Shown here piece by piece: positions 54,438-64,000 of a stretch of DNA of 64,000 bases. Origin of the DNA: Candidatus Woesebacteria bacterium (GTDB lineage Bacteria; Patescibacteriota; Saccharimonadia; Saccharimonadales; EFPC-124); the NCBI GenBank assembly GCA_050115675.1, contig JASFQB010000002.1, positions 4,376 through 68,375 of the forward strand, in the 5' to 3' direction. The position numbers and the translations under genes were made by a program. The notes under the pieces were generated by a model that saw nothing but the letters and a program-made list of their open reading frames with translations, made no database searches and was not told where the DNA came from. Position 1 is the stretch's first letter; every line of letters begins with the position of its first letter.

Positions 54438-54514
54438 GGGCGCTTAGCTCAGTTGGCTAGAGCGTCTCGTTTACACCGAGAGGGTCGGGGGTTCGAGTCC
54501 CTCAGCGCCCACCA
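54438..54514 (+). tRNA. tRNA-Val (anticodon TAC)
   Basis: GGGCGCT acceptor, anticodon loop TTTACAC, T-loop TTCGAGT, encoded CCA. Followed by the hairpin aaataagtacccga/tcgggtatttattt. Confidence 0.9.
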
Positions 54515-54648
54515 AAATAAGTACCCGATTTGTCGGGTATTTATTTTGTCGTAAAATAGTTGAAACACTTGTCAAACAGCGTGCAACCCTATATAATCGT
54601 TCTCGTTGCATGTATGCGTGACTATCCGTAGGATGCCAAACAATACAT

Positions 54649-54725
54649 GCGGGTGTAGCTCAGTTGTTTAGAGCGCATCCTTGCCAAGGATGAGGCCGCG
54701 GGTTAGAGTCCCGCCACCCGCACCA
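54649..54725 (+). tRNA. tRNA-Gly (anticodon GCC) with non-canonical D-loop and T-loop
   Basis: Acceptor GCGGGTG/CACCCGC, anticodon loop TTGCCAA, encoded CCA. The D-loop is AGTTGTTTA (no GG) and the T-loop is TTAGAGT (A at position 56). Confidence 0.8.
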
Positions 54726-56239
54726 AATGAGACACTTTTACATTGATAATCCAGAAAACAGCGGTAGAAAGGGCTAATTTGGGTGTTGGAATAACCCGGA
54801 TAGCTCCACTGCAATCCTTTTGGAAATATCGAACACATCAAGACGCGCTTCTGTTCTAGAGGCGCGTTTTGATATGTTTCGACTAAATTCGTAAACTTGG
54901 TCTCGATGAATTTTGTGATAGCTTCAAGATTATATTTTTCAATCGTCGCTTCGTTTTTGGCGGCTTGAATAGCGGTTATTTTTTCTTCTAATATTTTGTT
55001 TTGCTCCTTAAAGATGTCGTCGGAATAGACGCCGTTTAGATTCTTTTCTATAAGTGCTTGGCGCGTTTCGTAGATTTTCTTTAGCTCGACGTCGGCTTGG
55101 TCGCGTTTTTGCTTTAAAGCGCCCGTGCGTTGGTAGTATGCGCGTCGCAAGAAGGCGTTAATCATTTGGGCTGTCTCTGGCTTAAGTGTGACGCTTTTTA
55201 GAAGTTTTGCTGTCTCCGGCTCTATTTCGGCGAGCGGCACATTTGACTTAGCGCCGCAGCGTTTGATGCAAAAGTAATAGCCGTAAGTTTGCGCCTTGCC
55301 CTTGCTCCATGCGGCGGTGAATGATTGCCCACAGCGGCCACACCGCACAATGCGGCGTAGAGGGAAATCGGGATTATTGTGTGTACGTTTAGCGAGTACA
55401 ACTGGCGTGTTGAAATTGCGCCCATCTAAAATTGCCTGGACGCGATAGAAAGTTTCTTCGGTAATCATTGGCGTGTGCTGACCCTGTACTTCAAGGCCGT
55501 ATTTTTTTGAAATGACTTTTCCGGTATAGAATTTGTTGCGGAAGATACGGCTCATGGTCTGGCGGCGAAGCCGAGTTTCTTTATGGCCTTTTCGTTTTTC
55601 CCGGATTCCTTGCTCGTCAAGGTATTTAGCCATCTCGCTTAGACTTTTTGTGCCCGTTTCCATAAGTTCCCAGGCTGCCTTTAGTGCGCTAAACGTTTCC
55701 GGGTCTTTTACTGCGTAGCTATTTTGCCGTAGGTAGCCAAGCGGCAGGCTGCCGTTGTGTAAACCGCTCATAAAGCGGGCGCGCATGCCATTTCGCGAGC
55801 GTTCGCCGCGTACGTCGTTGTCCATTTGGGCAAAACCAGCTAGCATTGTTTCAATAAAACGCTCGGTAGGAGTATCGCCGGTTGGCTCGCTGGCAGAAAT
55901 AAGTGTGATGTTGCATTCGGCAAGTTTTTTGCGGATAGCAAGGTAGTCTGCAGTCTGTCGCGAAATACGGTCAAGGCGATAAACAATTACCGCGCCGACT
56001 TCGTTTTTGTGTTTGCGGCAGTAGTCGAGCATTTCAATCAGCGTTGGCCGCTCTCGGATAGTCTTGGCTGATCGTCCCTCTTCTCGGAATATCTCGCTAA
56101 TTTGCAGACCACGGCGTTCAGCCTCTTTGCGGCAAATATCGGCCTGCGTATCAAGCGAGTAGTTGTCTACTTGCTCCTCAGTTGAAACACGAAGATACAC
56201 AACGGCGATATGCTTATCTGGTTGCGCACCACCCGCCAT
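54668..56239 (-). CDS. large serine recombinase (integrase)
   Basis: Resolvase catalytic domain (VVYLRVSTEEQ ... YRLDRISR), recombinase domain and a zinc-ribbon region (RCGRCGQ...CIKRCG) with a coiled coil. The last 19 codons are antisense to tRNA-Gly. Confidence 0.9.
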   Translation of the reverse strand: MAGGAQPDKHIAVVYLRVSTEEQVDNYSLDTQADICRKEAERRGLQISEIFREEGRSAKTIRERPTLIEMLDYCRKHKNEVGAVIVYRLDRISRQTADYLAIRKKLAECNITLISASEPTGDTPTERFIETMLAGFAQMDNDVRGERSRNGMRARFMSGLHNGSLPLGYLRQNSYAVKDPETFSALKAAWELMETGTKSLSEMAKYLDEQGIREKRKGHKETRLRRQTMSRIFRNKFYTGKVISKKYGLEVQGQHTPMITEETFYRVQAILDGRNFNTPVVLAKRTHNNPDFPLRRIVRCGRCGQSFTAAWSKGKAQTYGYYFCIKRCGAKSNVPLAEIEPETAKLLKSVTLKPETAQMINAFLRRAYYQRTGALKQKRDQADVELKKIYETRQALIEKNLNGVYSDDIFKEQNKILEEKITAIQAAKNEATIEKYNLEAITKFIETKFTNLVETYQNAPLEQKRVLMCSIFPKGLQWSYPGYSNTQISPFYRCFLDYQCKSVSFGAGGGTLTRGLILGKDAL

Positions 56240-56241
56240 AT

Positions 56242-56568
56242 TTAGCCCTGCCCGAGCACCTGCTTTAAGGTTTGGCCGTCAAATATATTCTGCTCAAAAG
56301 TGTCGAGCCATTCGTCCAGGAGATGCTGAAATTCGGTGAGGCAGACTTCTAATTCTTCGTCAGAAAGGCAATCAACGGCTGCGCCCATTATGCGCCGTGC
56401 CTGCTGCATGCGAGTTTCTTCCTGGCTAGACTTAAAGATGTTCTGCAAGGCGGCATCAATGTCGGTCGTGTTCTGTCGGAGTGCAGCCGAAAGAGATGGA
56501 GCGGATTTCATTGGCTGAGTAGGCGTGGAAGTTGTTTTTTGTGCTTCCAAGAATAGATTAAGCTGCAT
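56242..56568 (-). CDS. hypothetical protein upstream of, and coupled to, the serine recombinase
   Basis: GAGGG ribosome-binding site before the ATG at 56568. The stop is 2 nt from the recombinase start. Helical and acidic. A role as directionality factor or regulator is inference only. Confidence 0.5.
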   Translation of the reverse strand: MQLNLFLEAQKTTSTPTQPMKSAPSLSAALRQNTTDIDAALQNIFKSSQEETRMQQARRIMGAAVDCLSDEELEVCLTEFQHLLDEWLDTFEQNIFDGQTLKQVLGQG

Positions 56569-56831
56569 CCGGGTACCCTCATTTACTAACATTATATTGA
56601 TAGTATACTATCCGTATAATGTTGTTTCAAGTAGCATAAGCATATTTATGTAGTAATATAAACTTCAACGCCGCTGTTGAACTTTTTTACTTATCTTTAC
56701 CCCTATTCTTTACTATTACTTTTTATCCCTTTATTATATATAAATATATAGAAGCAAAAGACATAGTACGTGCAGGAGAGTTTAATTGTCTAGAAAAATA
56801 AAATTGAAGATATATCTAAGTGAACGAATGT

Positions 56832-57653
56832 ATGGCCAGGTGTGATGTGAAACTTAGAAGAAAATTAAACGAAGGCCAGGTGCAGGTCTTGGAGCTTCTG
56901 TATAAATTTAGGTTTGGAACTAATGAACTATTTGCAGAGTATTTTGGCAAAAAAGACAGGTCGTTTGTGTTTAAACGGCTTAAGATCTTGCAGGAGCAGG
57001 GGCTAGTCGGCAAGCGCTTTGACGGAAGTTATCGCTTATTAGGCAAGCCAGCGGCCTACTACTTACTGCCAGACGGGGCAAGGCGGTTGCCGGAGTATCG
57101 CGCCGCGGACGACGCAGACGAAATTAACGTTAAGGGGATTTATAAAGACAAGAGCGTTTCGGATAAGTTTGTAACTCGCTGCCAGGATATTTTTACGCTT
57201 TTTAATCGGTTAAAGGCCGTTTATGGCGACAAGCTCGTGTTTTCTACCAAAAGCGACCTTGCTCCTTATGATTATTTTCCTAAGCAGTCGCCGGATGCGT
57301 ATTTGCAGCTTGAGCTGGAGGACGGTGAGCGCGAGTTCTTTTTGCTGATTCATTACAGTCACCAGCAGTTTTTTGCCGCCATAAAACGGCTTCAATATTA
57401 CATAAAATATGCGGAGAGCGGCGATTGGGAAGAGGGTGAAACGGACTTTCCGGCGTTGATTATGGTTTTTGAATCTCAGGCAGATCAAAAGCGGTTTTAT
57501 AAAAAAGCGTCCAGGATTATGCGGGAGGCGGCAGACGAAATTGTGCTTTATACTGCGGTTTTGAGTGATGTTAAGGCGGTTACGGATGCGGATCAAGAGG
57601 TGCTGTGCGCCTTTGATGAGCCGGAAGAGGTGTATTCGTTTTTGGATGCGTGA
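56832..57653 (+). CDS. replication-relaxation family (winged-helix) protein
   Basis: LNEGQVQVLELLYKFRFGTNELFAEYFG...FKRLKILQEQGLV is the wHTH typical of the plasmid/ICE Replication-relaxation family. Confidence 0.6.
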   Translation: MARCDVKLRRKLNEGQVQVLELLYKFRFGTNELFAEYFGKKDRSFVFKRLKILQEQGLVGKRFDGSYRLLGKPAAYYLLPDGARRLPEYRAADDADEINVKGIYKDKSVSDKFVTRCQDIFTLFNRLKAVYGDKLVFSTKSDLAPYDYFPKQSPDAYLQLELEDGEREFFLLIHYSHQQFFAAIKRLQYYIKYAESGDWEEGETDFPALIMVFESQADQKRFYKKASRIMREAADEIVLYTAVLSDVKAVTDADQEVLCAFDEPEEVYSFLDA

Positions 57654-57699
57654 TTATTCTGGGCGGGCAGTTTAGCGTCTTGCCCGGGACGTTAGAGGA

Positions 57700-57954
57700 C
57701 TACTCTTCGGTTACGATCTCGACCCAATTGACTCTGGCTAGTGACGTGTTGATCAAGTCGCCAGCAATGCCATCTGTTTCCAACCGGTACATCTCGCGCG
57801 CCAATTCTTCTAGTCGCTCAGCCTTGCTATACGCGCTGTCGCTTCCGGCCTTTATTTCTTCTAGTAACTCGTAGCTGCCTTGATCGCCTCGGAGCCAAAG
57901 CGCCATAAGCCAAGTCTCGTAGTTGCTCCAGCCGTTGTATTCTTGCTCGTTCAT
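57700..57954 (-). CDS. hypothetical phage/plasmid-type small acidic protein
   Basis: The NGWSNYETWLMALWL motif is recurrent in mobile-element small proteins. An AGGAG ribosome-binding site is present. Confidence 0.5.
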   Translation of the reverse strand: MNEQEYNGWSNYETWLMALWLRGDQGSYELLEEIKAGSDSAYSKAERLEELAREMYRLETDGIAGDLINTSLARVNWVEIVTEE

Positions 57955-58035
57955 AATCATCTCCTAAAATTTATTGGTTACTTAAAACCCGGAAGGCCAG
58001 AATCGACCTCCCGGGTATACTAAAAAGCGAGTGAA

Positions 58036-58347
58036 CTAATATTTACTCGCCAGCATAACGGTCAAGACCCGCCTACAGTCAGACGAAAGCGGGTCTTTTC
58101 TGTACATAAGCGACCGGTCGTAGCAATCTATTTTCCAGAACACTTTCTTTCCGTGCCATTCCAGCGAGCCAAAGTCATGCTCGCCGCAAGGGTCGTTGCC
58201 CTTGGTGAAATCGTTAAACCTACGAATTTCACTAATCAATTCAGGTAAATCCTCCAAATCTTTAACACCTCGCGTCACCATAATTTTGTGGCTGGTCTTA
58301 CGGAATGTATCGTTCAATATTGCGATCTTTGAAGCGTCTTTGTTCAT
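58036..58347 (-). CDS. DUF3768-domain protein
   Basis: NDPCGEHDFGSLEWHGKKVFWKIDCYD matches the DUF3768 core (DPYGEHDFG...W.KIDYYD). Confidence 0.7.
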   Translation of the reverse strand: MNKDASKIAILNDTFRKTSHKIMVTRGVKDLEDLPELISEIRRFNDFTKGNDPCGEHDFGSLEWHGKKVFWKIDCYDRSLMYRKDPLSSDCRRVLTVMLASKY

Positions 58348-58643
58348 ATCGATCCTCCTTATTATTTACTTTCTGAGCAAGTCGACCTTCCCGCTCACAG
58401 CCGGGGCAAGGGGTAAATTGGACACATCAATGTGGAGCTCCCCACGGAAGAACGACATTGAGGTGGGCGATTTACCCCTTATAATGAGGAGACAGTGGGA
58501 AGGTTAAATCGAAAGACATTCGTAGGCTATAAACCAAGGTTCGCAGATTTACAAGGTATTCATTCTTAGTTGCAGAAAAAATGGCAACAAGATACTTCAA
58601 TATTAAGCTTCTGCAGCTTAAGTTCTTATGCTACAATTTAGCT

Positions 58644-59393
58644 ATGGATATGAGTTTGAAGGGTAGTGCGAAGCTTGATTGTGGGCGCATATACAATATT
58701 GATTGCGTCAAAGGCATGAGAGAATTCTCTTTATTGAAAAGCGGCGTTGATCTAATAGTCGCTGACCCTCCTTATATTATCTCGCGTGGATCTAACTTCC
58801 ATACAATGAAGGACAGGAAAAATGCTCGAACCGGAACAGACTTTGGGAAATGGGATCAAGAATTTGAGAATGCCCCGTGGATAAAAGCCGCATTTGACAC
58901 CCTTAAAAAGGGTGGTTCGCTAATCGCTTTCAACGATTTCAAAAAAGTATCGGAAATCATTTCGATAGCAATTGAGATGGGGTTCGAATATAAAGATGTG
59001 CTAGTGTGGGAGAAGTCAAACCCGATGCCCAGGAACAGAGACCGGCGATATGTCCCGTCACTTGAAATGATGGTATGGTTCGTTAAACCTGGCGCTAAAT
59101 GGACATTCAACAGGCTTGTGGAGACATATCAGAGCCCCGTTTTAAAATTCGCATCAGAAAGCGGAGGCGGCTTTAAGAGAATCCATCCTACACAAAAACC
59201 CGTGAAGCTTATGGAGGCCCTTATTAATGTTCATAGTAATAAAAATGACGTAATACTCGACCCGTTTATGGGTTCGGGCGCGACCGCTATAGCTTCTATA
59301 AATACCGGTCGTGACTTTATAGGTTTTGAGCTAGACCCGCACTACTGCGAGCTAGCTAACGACAGAATACAAAAGCATCGATCAAACATGTAG
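58644..59393 (+). CDS. beta-class N6-adenine/N4-cytosine DNA methyltransferase (N6_N4_Mtase family)
   Basis: DLIVADPPYI comes before HPTQKPVKLMEALI and DPFMGSGATAIAS, which is the beta-class order. The ORF-track start at 58581 is also possible. Confidence 0.85.
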   Translation: MDMSLKGSAKLDCGRIYNIDCVKGMREFSLLKSGVDLIVADPPYIISRGSNFHTMKDRKNARTGTDFGKWDQEFENAPWIKAAFDTLKKGGSLIAFNDFKKVSEIISIAIEMGFEYKDVLVWEKSNPMPRNRDRRYVPSLEMMVWFVKPGAKWTFNRLVETYQSPVLKFASESGGGFKRIHPTQKPVKLMEALINVHSNKNDVILDPFMGSGATAIASINTGRDFIGFELDPHYCELANDRIQKHRSNM

Positions 59394-59401
59394 CGCTTAG
59401 T

Positions 59402-60253
59402 ATGATATACGCATGCCCATTCAATTACATTGGCGGCAAAAGCAAACTATTGCCGACCTTACTGCCTATGCTTTCTGGTAATGCAGACAGTGTATTTGTT
59501 GATTTGTTCGGCGGTGGTTTTAGCGTAGGGCTTAATGTAGAAAATAGAACCCTTATTTACAATGACATAAACGTAGATTTAACTAAGTTGATTCAGCTGA
59601 TTCAGGAAACTCCGTTCGACGTTTTTGAAGCAAATTTGCTCAAGTTGATACATCGATATGAACTTTCGAAAATCAATTCCCAAGGCTATCTGAACCTGAG
59701 ATCTGATTTTAATGACTCACGTGATTCATATTTATTCTGCCTGTTAATCTTCTACTCTTTTAATCACCAGATAAGATACAACGGAAATCATCAATTTAAC
59801 ACGCCCTTTGGCAAAAATAGAAGCTCCTATAACACTCGTACTCAGGAAAAATTGCGCATTTTTTCGGATATAATCCACACAAAACAAATTACCTTCTCGT
59901 CTAAGACATTTCAAGAAGTAGATATACCCAGTAATGCAATTGTTTATATCGACCCACCTTATCTAATCACGACTGGCAGCTACAACGATGGTGACAGAGG
60001 GGTTAGTCGCTGGAATGAGTCAAGCGAACGTGCATTATACGCATTTATTGACTCCTTAGACAAAAAAAGTATTCCGTTTGTGCTTTCAAATATGTTAAAA
60101 AAAGGCGATTATATCAATAGCCTATTGAGTGAGTGGAAAGAAGGCTATGAATGGTTTGAAGTCTCAACGCGATATAGGAACTATCAGCGCGAAGATTATC
60201 AAACGCAAGAAATTATTGTCACTAATATGTCAAACGAAGGACGAAATGATTAG
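59402..60253 (+). CDS. Dam-type (alpha-class, D12) N6-adenine DNA methyltransferase
   Basis: FNYIGGKSKLL, DLFGGGFSVGL and VYIDPPYL. Confidence 0.85.
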   Translation: MIYACPFNYIGGKSKLLPTLLPMLSGNADSVFVDLFGGGFSVGLNVENRTLIYNDINVDLTKLIQLIQETPFDVFEANLLKLIHRYELSKINSQGYLNLRSDFNDSRDSYLFCLLIFYSFNHQIRYNGNHQFNTPFGKNRSSYNTRTQEKLRIFSDIIHTKQITFSSKTFQEVDIPSNAIVYIDPPYLITTGSYNDGDRGVSRWNESSERALYAFIDSLDKKSIPFVLSNMLKKGDYINSLLSEWKEGYEWFEVSTRYRNYQREDYQTQEIIVTNMSNEGRND

Positions 60254-61922
60254 TATTGTTGACTATGTACAGAGCTATAAACATCGTGCTGCCGGCTGGG
60301 TTCAAGATGCGGCAAGCTTTGACAATCTTCACCGTTTTGTGTCTGCATTCTCTGATAAGTCGCCATATCGCAATGAGCTCACAGACAAGATCCAGCAACA
60401 TGTTGAGGCCAAACTAGCTGAGAGATTCCTCGACATTATCGAGCAAATGCCCATTAGCGTATCGTATATTGATATTGTTGGCTCATCTCCAGGTGGCAGC
60501 AGGAAGAAAAATACAGTCTGCAATGGAATAGGTCAAGCAGCGCTTAAGGGTCAAAAGCGTGAATACCAGGGAGATTGGCCAACGAATAACTTTTTACGCT
60601 GGGCTGAGTCACTGCAATTTTTAAAGTATTCACCTTCAGATGACACATATGCCATAACTGATATAGGCCAACAATATGTTGTCGCTTCCACGAGCGACCA
60701 AATTGACGTAATACGACAACAGCTCATTATGTATGCGCCGGCGGTAAGAGTACTTTCACTACTAAAAGATCGCGACGAATGCACAAAATTTTATCTAGGC
60801 GAGAAAATAGGATTCATCGGCGAGAAAGGCTTCACAAACATCTCTGAGAAACTCTTCATGGATGTATATTTTTCAACAAATTCTTTGATAGACAGAAGAA
60901 AGTTAAAGAGTGACTATGAGGGCTCTAGCGATAAGTACGCACGCCAGATTTGTAGCTGGTTAAATACAGTTGGGCTGGTCAATATAGTTAAAAAGAAAAT
61001 CTCCTGCAACGATGATGAACTTATATTACCCGCATACGCTATTAGTGCGCAAGGGAAAGAATTTTTGCGAAAGGCTAACATATCCAAGTGTCGTTTCGTG
61101 CCTTTTGGCATGCTCTCGATGGAAGAGTCTAATAAAGAGCATATTTGCAAGAGACGTGCGCTTATTCTAAAAGCCTTGTCTGGTGGCACCAATTTAATTG
61201 AAGAAATTGTAAAGTTTGAGGGCGAACAAGATGTCGAGGCTACCCCTTCTGAGATCGAAGATGACATTCTATCACTTCGCAACATGGGGATTAATATCAT
61301 TGGAAATAATCCCTATCAGCTTAAGGACAGCATCGACGGACTTTACATACCACGAATAGTTTCCCCTACAACGCTCTCTAAAGCGCTAAAGATAAAAGAG
61401 CAATTGCGCCGCGACCTAAGGCATATAGATCATAATCTACTTGTATTGATCGATTTTGCTTATGGTAGTTCTAAGACGGCCCGTCTTTTTGAGACATATG
61501 TTGCACGAGTGTACGAGCAAATTTGTTCGGATACCTTTCTATTAGGCGGAGCGAGTAAACCTGACGTCGTAACGTGCATGCCGAAAATGACGTTAATTGT
61601 TGACTCAAAAGCTTACAAAGATGGTTTCGCTATGCCTCAGGGCGAAAGAGACAAAATGGTCAGGTATATAGAAGAGTGCAAGCAGAAAAACAGTGCATGG
61701 TATAAAACTATAAAAGAGAAAATCAAAACTGACGTTGTGGGATTTCAGTTTGTCTCAAGTGAATTTAATAATGCAGCTCCAAAACTATCTGAAATATCCG
61801 GTAGGACTGGCGTGAATGGCTCCGCAATATCCGCAGAAAATCTACTCAGAATGGTTAATGGAGCGCTATCAGGGGAGGCTATAGACTACTCAAAGTTAAC
61901 CTCAAATCTAGAAGTTGCCTAG
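60246..61922 (+). CDS. type IIS restriction endonuclease with a FokI-like C-terminal cleavage domain
   Basis: The C-terminus LLGGASKPDVVTCMPKMTLIVDSKAYKDGFAMPQGERDKMVRYIEEC aligns by eye with the FokI catalytic region (LGGSRKPDGAIY...VIVDTKAYSGGYNLPIGQADEMQRYVEEN). The ATG at 60246 overlaps the methylase stop. Confidence 0.8.
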   Translation: MISIVDYVQSYKHRAAGWVQDAASFDNLHRFVSAFSDKSPYRNELTDKIQQHVEAKLAERFLDIIEQMPISVSYIDIVGSSPGGSRKKNTVCNGIGQAALKGQKREYQGDWPTNNFLRWAESLQFLKYSPSDDTYAITDIGQQYVVASTSDQIDVIRQQLIMYAPAVRVLSLLKDRDECTKFYLGEKIGFIGEKGFTNISEKLFMDVYFSTNSLIDRRKLKSDYEGSSDKYARQICSWLNTVGLVNIVKKKISCNDDELILPAYAISAQGKEFLRKANISKCRFVPFGMLSMEESNKEHICKRRALILKALSGGTNLIEEIVKFEGEQDVEATPSEIEDDILSLRNMGINIIGNNPYQLKDSIDGLYIPRIVSPTTLSKALKIKEQLRRDLRHIDHNLLVLIDFAYGSSKTARLFETYVARVYEQICSDTFLLGGASKPDVVTCMPKMTLIVDSKAYKDGFAMPQGERDKMVRYIEECKQKNSAWYKTIKEKIKTDVVGFQFVSSEFNNAAPKLSEISGRTGVNGSAISAENLLRMVNGALSGEAIDYSKLTSNLEVA

Positions 61923-61987
61923 GCGATTTAAGAAACTATCCCATTAAATCACCTTAAATTTAGTATTAATATCGTATACTCGTTTAT

Positions 61988-62305
61988 ATGATACGAGTAG
62001 TAATCGAAAGCCCCTTCGCGGGCGATATTAAGAAGAATATTGAGTATGCCCGCAAGTGCATGTCAGATTGTCTGAAGCGTGGCGAGGCTCCGTACGCAAG
62101 CCATCTTATATACACGCAAGAAGGTATCTTGAATGATAGTATCCCTGAGGAGCGAGCGTTGGGTATCGAAGCTGGCTTAGTTTGGGGCGAGTTGGCCGAA
62201 AAAGTTGTGGTATATCAAGATTTGGGGATTAGCGGTGGCATGCAGCTTGGTATCGACAAAGCTATAGCTCGCGGCACTACGGTTGAGTACAGAAATCTAT
62301 TCTGA
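61988..62305 (+). CDS. small mobile-element protein (possibly nucleoside 2-deoxyribosyltransferase-like / DUF4406-like)
   Basis: 105 aa. VVIESPFAG ... APYASHLIYTQ resembles that fold family, but the assignment is weak. Confidence 0.4.
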   Translation: MIRVVIESPFAGDIKKNIEYARKCMSDCLKRGEAPYASHLIYTQEGILNDSIPEERALGIEAGLVWGELAEKVVVYQDLGISGGMQLGIDKAIARGTTVEYRNLF

Positions 62306-62308
62306 CAA

Positions 62309-64000
62309 TTATACTCTACCGGTGTTTCTTGGCTTTCTAGCTACATTCGCTCTGCGACGGTAGGCAGTTTTTGGCTGCTCGCTTTGGGTTTGCTTAATTT
62401 CTGGTTTTAACTCCGGCGCAACATACTTTTTAGCATAGTTCTTGCGCGAAGCAGCTTTGGCGCGCTTGGCTGTTTCTACGCTGCCTTCGTCTTCCGGCAA
62501 AAGGGTGATGCCTGAAAACGGTTCATGCACTTTTTGCGCCGAGATGCGCATGTAAAAGTTGTAAGCTGGCAGGCTGGCTATTTCGCCGTTTTCTATGCGT
62601 GATTGGAATTGCGGCAACAACACCTTTTCGTCGTCTGGATTGCCGGTGCGGAAACAGATGATATTCCCGGCGTTGCCTAAGATTTGCCCTAGCACGTCCT
62701 TATCTTCTTGCTGGGCGGTTGTTTGCTCCGCCATTGTAAGTGATAGCTTGTACTTGCGGGCTTCGGCCAGCATTTCGGCAAATGACGGCGTGGCAAAGTT
62801 TTGGAATTCGTCAACATATAAGTAAAACGGCTTGCGCTCTGCTGGCCGGATTTTGCTGCGGCAGTACGTTGTAAGCTGAATCATAGTGAGCGTTGCAATG
62901 CCAAACAGCTCCGATGTATCTTCGCCAAGATCGCCCTTGGAGAAGTTACAGATCAGGATCTTGTCGGAGTTCATAATATCCTCAAAGTTGATGGTGGATT
63001 TGGGCTGCTCTAAAACTCGCTTGGCGGCCGCTGAGCGCTGGAACCGGCTGATTTTTGTCGTCACGCCGGCAGACATTTTAACGCGCTGCATTTCGCCCGC
63101 TTTGCCAAGTTCTTCGCGCCAAAAGTCTTTTAAATCTTCGTCCTGCAATTGCGCGATAACTTGCTTGCGAAATTCCACGTTGCGCAAAAGCTTGAGCGCC
63201 GTAAATAACGTGGCGTCCTCTACGGTGAACGCGGTGTGCACGGCGTTGCGCAAAACGTCTTCTATGCGGTGACCGCCTTCGCCTTCGGTGGAAAAGGTTT
63301 TACGGAACAGCGACACGATTGCTTCTGCCAAAAGGTCTCTGGCGCGTAAGGTGTCGTTTTCGCTCAAACCGGATGGCAGCTCCAGCAAGTTTAGCCCTAT
63401 CGGATAATCCAAATCGTCGGGGTTAAAGTAAACCACATCGTTTAAGCGTTCTTCCGGGATATGCTCCAAAAGCATTTCGGCCATGTCGCCGTGCGGGTCA
63501 ATTACGGCCACGCCTCGCCCGGCCTTGATGTCTTGCAAAATAGCGTATTGCAACAGCGTTGTTTTGCCGCAGCCGGTGGCACCAATAACAAACATGTGCC
63601 GCGCTCGTTCCTCTGTGGTCAGGCCTATGTAATTTTCTTCGCCGTGGTGTTGGTTGTAGCCAAGGATAACGTCGAACTCGCCGTTCTTGATCGTCAGCGG
63701 TGCAGGCAGCGTGCGGCTGCTGGATTTTACCATGTCTTCGGTTGTGATTTTGCCAAACGGGAAATGGTAAATGCTAGCCAGCTCCGACGCGGCAAAGATG
63801 CTTGAATTTGGATTGAACAGCGACGGTAAACGGCGCTCCAGCTTAAACCTTCGGAACTTATAACTTAAATCATTTAGCAGCGGCTTTGACTCGCCGAGCA
63901 ACTGAAACGGACTGTTGAGCGGCGCCAGCGAATCGCCGATGCCGTTATAAAGTTGATTGACGCGTTGCGGAGTTTCGGCCGCAACCGCAATGCGAATGTC
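62309..64000 (-). CDS. T4SS coupling-protein-like (TraD/VirD4/TraG-type) P-loop ATPase, 5' end beyond the window
   Basis: Walker A VIGATGCGKTT, Walker B FYLYVDEFQNF, basic C-tail. The reading frame stays open from 63901 to base 64000. Confidence 0.75.
   Translation of the reverse strand, partial: DIRIAVAAETPQRVNQLYNGIGDSLAPLNSPFQLLGESKPLLNDLSYKFRRFKLERRLPSLFNPNSSIFAASELASIYHFPFGKITTEDMVKSSSRTLPAPLTIKNGEFDVILGYNQHHGEENYIGLTTEERARHMFVIGATGCGKTTLLQYAILQDIKAGRGVAVIDPHGDMAEMLLEHIPEERLNDVVYFNPDDLDYPIGLNLLELPSGLSENDTLRARDLLAEAIVSLFRKTFSTEGEGGHRIEDVLRNAVHTAFTVEDATLFTALKLLRNVEFRKQVIAQLQDEDLKDFWREELGKAGEMQRVKMSAGVTTKISRFQRSAAAKRVLEQPKSTINFEDIMNSDKILICNFSKGDLGEDTSELFGIATLTMIQLTTYCRSKIRPAERKPFYLYVDEFQNFATPSFAEMLAEARKYKLSLTMAEQTTAQQEDKDVLGQILGNAGNIICFRTGNPDDEKVLLPQFQSRIENGEIASLPAYNFYMRISAQKVHEPFSGITLLPEDEGSVETAKRAKAASRKNYAKKYVAPELKPEIKQTQSEQPKTAYRRRANVARKPRNTGRV

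What the first reader, a model, noticed from the sequence alone, without database searches (positions are those of the whole stretch)
54649..54725. tRNA-Gly(GCC) with a U19-A56 swap, and a D-loop that supplies the recombinase stop codon
The D-loop reads AGTTGTTTA, where canonical tRNAs have G18 G19. The T-loop reads TTAGAGT, where canonical tRNAs have C56. The universal tertiary pair G19-C56 therefore appears replaced by a compensating U-A pair. That argues the gene is functional rather than randomly decayed. The serine-recombinase ORF on the opposite strand runs antisense through tRNA positions ~20-76. It terminates at TAA, the complement of the unusual TTA in the D-loop (54668-54670). A canonical GGTA D-loop would not give a stop there. 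The tRNA may be an att-site hybrid whose 3' portion was supplied by the element and co-evolved with the integrase C-terminus.
Basis: seen in the sequence. Interest (0 to 1): 0.55.

Follow-up and report, generated by a model that had tools for sequence, protein, structure and literature searches.

The report
Glycine tRNA with swapped elbow pair
This is the genome's only tRNA for the common glycine codons GGC/GGU. Its U19:A56 "elbow" pair is the normal, compensated form for this whole Saccharibacteria-type lineage, and the recombinase gene of a neighbouring mobile element simply reads on into the tRNA until it meets a stop codon, so the two oddities are unrelated.

Summary
The sequence facts are confirmed. 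tRNA-Gly(GCC) at 54649-54725 scores 72.9 bits on Rfam tRNA. Its D-loop is AGTTGTTTA (G18, U19) and its T-loop is TTAGAGT (A56). It is the only one of 44 tRNAs in this 1.18-Mb genome without GG/TTC, and the only GGY decoder; GGY makes up 72% of Gly codons.

The swap is not element-derived. All 47 tRNA-Gly(GCC) genes read in the same order or class carry U19:A56 (37) or A19:U56 (10), and none carries G:C. Elsewhere in the phylum G19:C56 dominates, with scattered A19:U56. No uncompensated case was seen.

The 523-aa large serine recombinase (54668-56239, minus strand) belongs to about 19 kb of mobile-element DNA joined to the tRNA's last six bases (GCACCA). Only that core recurs at the far junction, so the tRNA body is host DNA.

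The TAA stop is the complement of U20-U20a-A21, not U19. A canonical GGTTA loop would give the same stop.

In 21 of 25 homologue loci in this order the recombinase ORF ends inside a tRNA gene (Gly, Leu, Glu, Met), at whichever in-frame stop comes first; in three more it lies by a tRNA but stops elsewhere. A published precedent is Dehalococcoides dsiB/ssrA.

This scan has noted the same tRNA trait and overlap in other genomes. The att-hybrid and co-evolution reading is not supported.

The parts
54649..54725 (+). tRNA-Gly(GCC), 77 nt with encoded CCA. It is the sole GCC isoacceptor of the genome. It has G1:C72, C2:G71, G3:C70, anticodon GCC and discriminator A73.
   Evidence: ARAGORN; Rfam tRNA 72.9 bits; only copy in the genome.
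54667..54667 (+). U19 in the D-loop, where almost all tRNAs have G19.
   Evidence: Sequence; Rfam alignment; column 19 of alignment A1.
54705..54705 (+). A56 in the T-loop, where almost all tRNAs have C56. It pairs with U19. On the minus strand it falls in a Leu codon (CTA, 54704-54706) of the recombinase tail.
   Evidence: reading frame.
54668..54670 (-). TAA stop of the recombinase ORF, the complement of tRNA positions U20-U20a-A21. Position 19 is not part of it.
   Evidence: ORF coordinates; position numbering.
54720..54725 (.). GCACCA, the last six bases of the tRNA gene. This is the only sequence shared between this junction (attL) and the far junction at G000:C2:78258-78263, so the crossover lies here.
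54668..56239 (-). Large serine recombinase LSR1, 523 aa. Conserved protein sequence runs to about residue 507 (..FGA). The last 16-18 residues are antisense tRNA-Gly.
   Evidence: Pfam Resolvase 8.5e-33, Recombinase 5e-14, Zn_ribbon_recom 2.4e-6; phrog_95 integrase 4e-88; tails of 120 homologues.
54726..64000 (.). Left part of the mobile-element DNA; it runs off the window to G000:C2:78257, about 19.2 kb in all. It holds LSR1, a 116-aa ORF, a Rep/relaxase-like gene, DUF7249, DUF3768, two DNA methylases with a FokI-like endonuclease, DUF7768 and a VirD4/TraG-like ATPase. Beyond the window lie a NUDIX operon, RadC and a third serine recombinase.
54569..54597 (+). Promoter-like site (TTGTCA, 17-nt spacer, TATAAT; 11 of 12 matches) about 50 nt upstream of tRNA-Gly. 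This is a consensus match only.
54438..54514 (+). Neighbouring canonical tRNA-Val(UAC) with D-loop AGTTGGCTA and T-loop TTCGAGT. It served as the internal numbering reference. A hairpin with a T-run follows at 54522-54547.

Best explanation
Two independent things lie on top of each other.

(A) The tRNA is an ordinary, essential elongator tRNA-Gly(GCC) of a Saccharibacteria-type (CPR/Patescibacteria) bacterium. Its outermost elbow pair is U19:A56 instead of G19:C56. G18, U54, U55 and A58 are kept. The D-loop/T-loop contact is therefore still made by a Watson-Crick pair, which presents the same flat stacking face to RNase P, the ribosome and other elbow readers. This state is inherited: every tRNA-Gly(GCC) read in the order or class has U:A or A:U. 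Both class members sampled outside the order have A:U, which hints at the route G:C to A:U to U:A; this route is inferred and not rooted on a tree.

(B) About 19 kb of mobile-element DNA has been integrated by a large serine recombinase at the last six bases of the tRNA gene (GCACCA). The insertion leaves the tRNA sequence intact. The element's attP lies inside the 3' end of the recombinase gene, so in the integrated state the ORF crosses attL and runs antisense through host tRNA DNA to the first in-frame stop. Here that stop is TAA opposite U20-U20a-A21. The tail beyond ..FGA is a by-product of the flank.

Shown: gene identity, uniqueness, covariation, the junction core and the family-wide ORF/tRNA overlap. 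Inferred: physical pairing of U19 with A56, expression and charging, recombinase activity, and the order of events.
For: tRNA: 72.9 bits on RF00005. It is the single GCC isoacceptor among 44 tRNAs in a genome that is 99.65% complete. GGY makes up 72% of Gly codons, 51 per 1000 codons. The other 43 tRNAs are canonical.

Lineage trait: of 27 relatives' genes, 21 are U:A and 6 are A:U. A further 16 order or class genomes, 3 more and G491 bring the total to 47, with no G:C. Outside the class, about 130 listed genes are G:C apart from 5 that are A19:U56. No W56 without a complementary W19 was seen. Counting pairs on alignment A1 gave UA 15, AU 11, GC 11, with 99.6% of cells in the whole structure paired and 0 of 500 shuffles reaching that.

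Junctions: attL reads ...cacccGCACCAaatgag and the far junction reads ...caagtGCACCAcgaacg.

Family behaviour: of 25 homologue loci (own locus included) found among 201 order genomes, 24 lie beside a tRNA. In 21 the ORF ends inside the tRNA gene: Gly linear positions 20-22 (TAA), Leu 63-66 (TGA), Glu 35-37 (TGA; one locus at 12-14), Met 32-36 (TGA). Two more read right through the tRNA and one (G032, next to tRNA-Arg) has an earlier internal stop; one locus has no tRNA in the DNA held.

In 120 close homologues the conserved sequence stops at the core, and the tail follows the antisense of the local tRNA, for example GAGDGTLTRGL, GAGEETLTLDL and GADERT. A second recombinase subfamily at tRNA-Gly uses another frame. 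It stops at the complement of U54-U55-A56, or 14 codons later where the tRNA has U56.

Published precedent: dsiB overlapping ssrA/attL with an undefined stop codon (PMC3146451).
Against: There is no direct evidence of expression, aminoacylation or U19:A56 pairing. No RNA run holds the locus.

No truly empty site was found for this strain. The 'empty' comparison genome G024 carries a different recombinase (LSR2 type) at the same spot, so the crossover was located from a tandem junction and not from attB.

The ORF stays open up to the core in almost all family members. That could mean the part across the core matters.

Why only tRNA-Gly(GCC) changed is unexplained.
Confidence: 0.85

Rival explanations
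1. First reader's reading. The tRNA is an att-site hybrid. Its 3' portion, including A56, was brought by the element, U19 arose as host compensation, and the D-loop co-evolved with the recombinase to supply its stop codon.
For: The recombinase ORF does overlap tRNA linear positions 20-77 and stops in the D-loop. G000 and G491, which carry 78%-identical recombinases, have identical tRNA 3' halves.
Against: The trait was found in all 47 order or class genomes read, in loci with this recombinase, a different one or none detected by the tRNA. Only GCACCA is shared between the junctions. The stop is U20-U20a-A21 and does not depend on position 19. Recombinases 80-91% identical sit next to different host tRNA-Gly alleles, and their tails follow those alleles. 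Stop positions differ by target tRNA.
Confidence: 0.03
2. The elbow swap is adaptive and not neutral. Changing the exposed 19:56 face of this one abundant tRNA would alter recognition by an elbow reader, such as a tRNA-targeting nuclease or toxin, a modification enzyme such as TruB, or a regulatory RNA. Alternatively it could mark the tRNA for a second, non-ribosomal use.
For: The change is restricted to one isoacceptor out of 44. It has been kept across a whole class, and A19:U56 turns up in at least four further families of the phylum. TruB and a FemAB-family transferase are encoded in the genome.
Against: FemAB-family genes occur in 366 of 401 phylum genomes whatever the elbow type. They gave no match in several genomes that carry the trait (G103, G330, G344, G357, G409). 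No Gly T-box was found; the only hit scored 34 bits against a cut-off of 93 and lies elsewhere. Both U:A and A:U are tolerated, which fits 'any Watson-Crick pair will do'. Small-population symbionts fix compensated changes readily (established population-genetic reasoning; not tested here).
Confidence: 0.1
3. The recombinase's state-dependent C-terminus is functional. The gene spans attP, so integration swaps a reconstructed 37-residue element-encoded tail for a 16-residue tRNA-encoded one. This could tune the activity, stability or directionality of the enzyme.
For: In 21 of 25 homologue loci the frame stays open across the core and ends inside the tRNA. The reconstructed excised form would be 544 aa with a different tail. 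The same idea was raised for dsiB (PMC3146451). No terminator-like site follows the tRNA, so tRNA transcription would run antisense into the recombinase gene (inference).
Against: Tails are not conserved in length or sequence. They simply mirror the flanking DNA. Conserved protein sequence ends at the core. The excised form is a reconstruction and was not observed.
Confidence: 0.1
4. The gene is a decaying or non-translational tRNA copy, either a pseudogene or a cell-wall-type tRNA-Gly.
For: It lacks the G18-G19 doublet, as staphylococcal non-proteinogenic tRNA-Gly do (recalled knowledge).
Against: It is the sole GCC isoacceptor and GGY codons are very frequent. All stems are perfect. G18, U55, U54 and A58 are kept. 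It has the best covariance-model score of the three local tRNAs. The T-stem is all G-C.
Confidence: 0.01

Closest known systems
Canonical bacterial elongator tRNA-Gly(GCC), for example the G19:C56 forms in other Patescibacteria (L081-L091)
   Same: Cloverleaf; G1:C72, C2:G71 and G3:C70; anticodon GCC; G18, U54, U55 and A58; a 5-nt variable loop; encoded CCA. Some are near-identical in sequence.
   Different: U19:A56 in place of G19:C56. A73 discriminator in place of the U73 seen elsewhere in the phylum.
The tRNA elbow as described by Zhang & Ferre-D'Amare 2016 (PMC4810234) and the T-loop review PMC7912444
   Same: The same architecture is implied: residue 56 pairs with residue 19, and G18 intercalates.
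   Different: Those reviews treat G19 and C56 as conserved. Here the pair is U:A or A:U across a whole class. A full-text search for A19-U56 or U19-A56 found no paper.
Dehalococcoides ssrA genomic islands with the serine recombinase DsiB (McMurdie et al. 2011, PMC3146451)
   Same: A large serine recombinase gene next to attL on the reverse strand. It overlaps the 3' end of a tRNA-like gene (ssrA) or its repeat. Islands stand in tandem. The stop codon is set by the flank and the C-termini diverge.
   Different: The target here is the terminal GCACCA of tRNA genes, with only about 6 nt shared as against a 20-bp repeat. No DsiA-like small recombinase partner was seen. The host is a CPR bacterium.
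Characterised serine integrases: A118/LI (4KIS), TP901-1 (3BVP), SPbeta SprA (9DXD); also XisF and CcrB
   Same: The domain order of resolvase catalytic domain, recombinase domain and zinc ribbon.
   Different: Only distant similarity (E-values from 1e-10 to 1e-4). Those enzymes mostly target protein-coding genes, and as far as I recall their attP is not inside the int ORF.
Staphylococcal non-proteinogenic tRNA-Gly(UCC) (recalled knowledge)
   Same: A glycine tRNA without the GG doublet in the D-loop.
   Different: Ours keeps G18 and U55, has a compensated 19:56 pair and a strong T-stem, and is the only GGY decoder.

Membership tests
tRNA (Rfam RF00005) | Covariance-model score at or above the gathering threshold of 29 bits | tested here: met
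   72.9 bits, E = 1.2e-15, full-length match to model positions 1-71.
tRNA-Gly identity set | G1:C72, C2:G71, G3:C70, C35 and C36 | tested here: met
   Read directly from the sequence. These positions are invariant in alignment A1.
tRNA-Gly identity set (bacterial type) | U73 discriminator | tested here: not met
   A73 here, in the genome's other two tRNA-Gly, and in all class members. U73 is found elsewhere in the phylum. The genome has the dimeric alpha2-type GlyRS and no glyQ.
Canonical tRNA elbow | G18 with U55, and a U54-A58 reverse Hoogsteen pair | tested here: met
   G18 (54666), T54 and T55 (54703-54704) and A58 (54707) are present.
Canonical tRNA elbow | G19:C56 tertiary Watson-Crick pair | tested here: not met
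   U19:A56. A Watson-Crick pair is kept but the bases are changed. Covariation counts are UA 15, AU 11, GC 11.
Large serine recombinase (serine integrase) | An N-terminal resolvase catalytic domain, a recombinase domain and a zinc-ribbon domain | tested here: met
   PF00239 8.5e-33, PF07508 5e-14, PF13408 2.4e-6; phrog_95 integrase 4e-88.
Large serine recombinase (serine integrase) | Catalyses attP x attB recombination with a 2-nt crossover | not testable with these tools
   Only junction sequences are available. Contigs of public runs showed no excision joint.
Non-proteinogenic (cell-wall) tRNA-Gly | An extra copy alongside a proteinogenic isoacceptor, with weak EF-Tu-binding T-stem pairs | tested here: not met
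   It is the sole GCC gene. The T-stem is five G-C pairs. FemAB presence does not track the trait.

The most novel reading that the evidence does not exclude
Saccharibacteria-type bacteria have re-set, and once flipped (A:U to U:A), the 'invariant' 19:56 elbow pair of one specific, heavily used tRNA. On this reading they did so because some factor that reads the exposed elbow face discriminates tRNA-Gly(GCC) by it. Candidates are a tRNA-targeting toxin of hosts, phages or competitors, a modification enzyme, or an unknown regulatory RNA. The swap would then be an identity or escape mark and not neutral compensation.
Probability: 0.1. Interest if true: 0.65.

Novelty: new variant of a known kind. 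Interest (0 to 1): 0.4.

Why it matters
The result shows natural, class-wide replacement of a base pair that reviews treat as conserved in tRNA. Covariation between three Watson-Crick states (G:C, A:U, U:A) is perfect, which is clean comparative evidence that only the pairing at 19:56 is required and not the bases.

In practice it warns annotators not to call such tRNAs pseudogenes. It also gives a lineage marker: U19:A56 or A19:U56 together with A73.

The recombinase part documents a very large family, more than 1,400 homologues. Its members read here sit at the 3' end of tRNA genes and have genes that span their own attP. Their annotated C-termini are therefore artefacts of the insertion site. 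That matters for anyone mining serine integrases and their att sites as genome-engineering tools.

Tried and rejected
It gave 7 irrelevant hits. The survey was redone with the genome search.

(2) The 'empty site' in G024 is not empty. The gene abutting its tRNA-Gly, and the gene right of the far junction in G000, is a second large serine recombinase. The crossover was therefore located from a tandem junction.

(3) Inverted-repeat symmetry of the reconstructed attP was 11 of 22 matches, against 10.7 +/- 0.9 in shuffles. This is not significant and the claim was dropped.

(4) Link to FemAB cell-wall transferases. The family is near-universal in the phylum (366 of 401 genomes) and gave no match in several genomes that carry the trait, so there is no association.

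(5) Glycine T-box. The only hit was sub-threshold (34 bits against 93) and lies on another contig from GlyRS.

(6) Sequencing runs. No RNA holder is listed. All holders are kept as contigs. No excision or circle joint was seen. The source run laid almost nothing.

(7) A literature search for A19-U56 or U19-A56 returned no paper. The reviews I read do not mention exceptions.

Seven order or family genomes still gave no match. In at least one of them (G025) the tRNA is cut by a contig end.

Full report
**Observation.** The window holds tRNA-Phe (minus strand), tRNA-Val and tRNA-Gly(GCC) in a row. The tRNA-Gly at 54649-54725 has four perfect stems and an encoded CCA. It scores 72.9 bits on Rfam's tRNA model, against a threshold of 29 and more than its two canonical neighbours.

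I aligned it with tRNA-Val (D-loop AGTTGGCTA, T-loop TTCGAGT) and with the Rfam consensus. Its D-loop AGTTGTTTA reads A14 G15 U16 U17 G18 U19 U20 U20a A21, and its T-loop TTAGAGT reads U54 U55 A56 G57 A58 G59 U60.

**Is the gene functional?** The window's genome is G000: 1.18 Mb in 10 contigs, 44% G+C, 99.65% complete. It has 44 tRNA genes and a tmRNA. This is its only tRNA-Gly(GCC); the other glycine tRNAs are UCC and CCC. A script check showed it is the only one of the 44 without GG in the D-loop and TTC in the T-loop. In 516 long ORFs, GGC and GGT make up 72% of glycine codons, about 51 per 1000 codons. The gene must therefore work in translation. An 11-of-12 sigma-70-like site lies about 50 nt upstream (consensus match only).

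**A lineage trait, not an element product.** I read full-length tRNA-Gly(GCC) genes from G000 and 26 relatives of the same family or order. Of these 27, 21 have G-U in the D-loop with TTAGAG in the T-loop (U19:A56), and 6 have G-A with TTTGAG (A19:U56). None has G19:C56.

A pattern search over 401 genomes of the phylum left positions 19 and 56 free. It added 14 order genomes and both sampled class members outside the order, all U:A or A:U. Three more order genomes followed, plus G491. The total is 47 genomes: 37 U:A, 10 A:U and 0 G:C.

Outside the class, about 130 listed genes are canonical. The exceptions are five A19:U56 cases in four other families (G272, G424, G309, G295 and a second copy in G349). 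No gene had a changed 56 without the complementary 19.

On a 48-sequence alignment (A1), the tertiary pair counts are UA 15, AU 11, GC 11, plus one cell that is an alignment shift in a canonical tRNA. The whole structure is 99.6% paired, with 0 of 500 shuffles as good. Part of that sample was chosen for the trait, so the unbiased statement is the one.

Both class members outside the order have A:U. This hints at G:C to A:U (two transitions) followed by a flip to U:A within the order. I did not root this on a tree.

Names attached to recombinase homologues (Candidatus Saccharibacteria, Saccharimonadales, Patescibacteria group) agree with earlier scan notes that this is a CPR/Saccharibacteria-type genome.

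**The recombinase and the element.** The ORF at 54668..56239 (minus strand, 523 aa) is a large serine recombinase. It has the Resolvase, Recombinase and zinc-ribbon domains, hits phrog_95 'integrase' at 4e-88, and is distantly related to TP901-1, A118/LI, SprA, XisF and Ccr.

To its right lie mobile-element genes:
- a 116-aa ORF
- a Rep/relaxase-like protein
- DUF7249 and DUF3768
- two methylases with a FokI-like endonuclease
- DUF7768
- a VirD4/TraG-like ATPase
- beyond the window, a NUDIX operon, RadC and a third serine recombinase.

The far junction is at G000:C2:78258-78263. There GCACCA is followed by the 3' end of yet another serine recombinase, LSR2 (583 aa, only 19% identical to LSR1), whose orthologue in G024 abuts tRNA-Gly directly. 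This is a tandem array at one hotspot.

attL (...cacccGCACCAaatgag...) and the far junction (...caagtGCACCAcgaacg...) share only GCACCA. The crossover therefore lies in the last six bases of the tRNA gene, and positions 1-71, including 19 and 56, are host DNA.

A contig of a groundwater metagenome joins a 92%-similar LSR1 backbone (about 3.9 kb) to the last 360 nt of the block. This suggests the middle is variable cargo. It rests on one contig and is only a hint.

**The stop codon.** The TAA at 54668-54670 is the complement of U20-U20a-A21. U19 (54667) lies outside the ORF. A56 sits in a Leu codon of the tail. Putting G at position 19 would not remove the stop. The genome's own canonical 9-nt D-loops (GGTTA in tRNA-His, for example) carry the same TTA.

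More generally, I found 25 homologue loci (own locus included) among 201 order genomes, and 24 of them lie beside a tRNA. In 21 the recombinase ORF runs antisense into the 3' end of the tRNA gene and ends at the first in-frame stop inside it:
- Gly, linear positions 20-22 (G000 and G491, 78% identity)
- Leu(TAG), 63-66 (68-74% identity)
- Glu, 35-37 (one locus at 12-14)
- Met, 32-36.

Two more loci read right through the tRNA. The G032 homologue next to tRNA-Arg(TCT) (65% identity) has an earlier internal stop. One locus has no tRNA in the DNA held.

A second, 25%-identical subfamily at tRNA-Gly reads another frame. It stops at the complement of U54-U55-A56. Where the host tRNA has U56, it reads 14 codons further.

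Among 120 close database homologues, conservation ends at '..V.(I/F)GA', which is the core. The remaining residues mirror the local tRNA, for example GAGDGTLTRGL.., GAGEETLTLDL.., GADERT and G.PGGIRTPD...

The tail and its stop are thus set by the flank. In the reconstructed excised form, LSR1 would end 37 residues after the core (544 aa). LSR2 currently carries that very tail.

The same situation, with the same open question, was described for dsiB at ssrA in Dehalococcoides (PMC3146451).

**Why the swap?** This is not settled. I tested two ideas.

FemAB-type glycyl-tRNA-dependent transferases are present here. They are also present in 366 of 401 genomes of the phylum regardless of elbow type, and gave no match in several genomes that carry the trait.

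There is no glycine T-box. TruB is present, so formation of pseudouridine 55 on an A56 T-loop is an open biochemical question.

The simplest reading is compensated drift: any Watson-Crick pair serves. That fits the elbow's role as a stacking platform (PMC4810234).

**Relation to earlier scan notes.** This scan has noted the same tRNA trait and the same recombinase/tRNA overlap on other genomes (e1-1551740, e1-2026829, e1-2124265 and others). I reached the reading recorded before seeing them. I re-derived their main claims here on independent loci. The dsiB paper was a lead from e1-1551740, which I read myself.

**Verdict.** The 'att-site hybrid co-evolved with the integrase stop' part is not supported. 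The tRNA variant is a real, little-documented, lineage-wide departure from a near-universal rule. The overlap is a known kind of by-product.

Noticed in passing
window 54722 (A73); G000:C1:86627-86702 and C5:55368-55441; alignment A1 column 74: All three tRNA-Gly of this genome, and every tRNA-Gly(GCC) read in the class, have discriminator A73. The rest of the phylum has the usual bacterial U73. The genome has the dimeric alpha2-type GlyRS (C6:56931-58259) and no glyQ.
   Followed up: partly
G000:C2:78146-79897 (L037:10147-11898, minus strand), outside the window: A second large serine recombinase (583 aa, 19% identical to LSR1) stands in tandem. Its ORF crosses the GCACCA junction and ends 112 nt inside the neighbouring element's arm. 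In G024 its orthologue sits directly on tRNA-Gly, in the same frame, and stops at the same D-loop TAA.
   Followed up: partly
G000:C2:75253-76659 (L037:7254-8660, plus strand): A third serine recombinase (468 aa) lies inside the 19-kb block and has an ordinary end. The block is probably composite.
   Followed up: no
Loci L047-L070 and proteins P0001-P0120: A very large recombinase family (more than 1,456 homologues at E <= 1e-30) occurs in Saccharibacteria-type genomes. It retargets among tRNA genes (Gly, Leu, Arg, Glu, Met and others). The target can be read from the antisense-tRNA tail of the annotated protein.
   Followed up: partly
L014, L022, L024, L025, L026 (relatives): A different recombinase subfamily at tRNA-Gly carries a hairpin with a T-run directly after the tRNA, inside its own ORF tail (..KKDLSETEKS..). 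The element appears to supply a terminator-like hairpin to the tRNA gene. LSR1's arm has none.
   Followed up: no
L033 (G012:C3), 137 nt after tRNA-Gly: A relic: 137 nt that are 90% identical to the 3' end of LSR1 remain next to tRNA-Gly, followed by an unrelated 269-aa gene. This looks like a decayed or replaced element.
   Followed up: partly
window 54726-56400, plus strand: No terminator-like site follows tRNA-Gly after the insertion. Transcription from the tRNA promoter would therefore run antisense into the recombinase gene and could interfere with it.
   Followed up: no
G000 contig C10 (4,687 bases): This contig has 60% G+C against 43-45% for the other nine contigs. It may be a contaminant or foreign DNA.
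   Followed up: no
G016, G020, G022, G023, G025, G028, G030: Many relatives' contigs break at or within tRNA-Gly(GCC). This fits a strain-variable insertion hotspot that assemblers cannot resolve.
   Followed up: no
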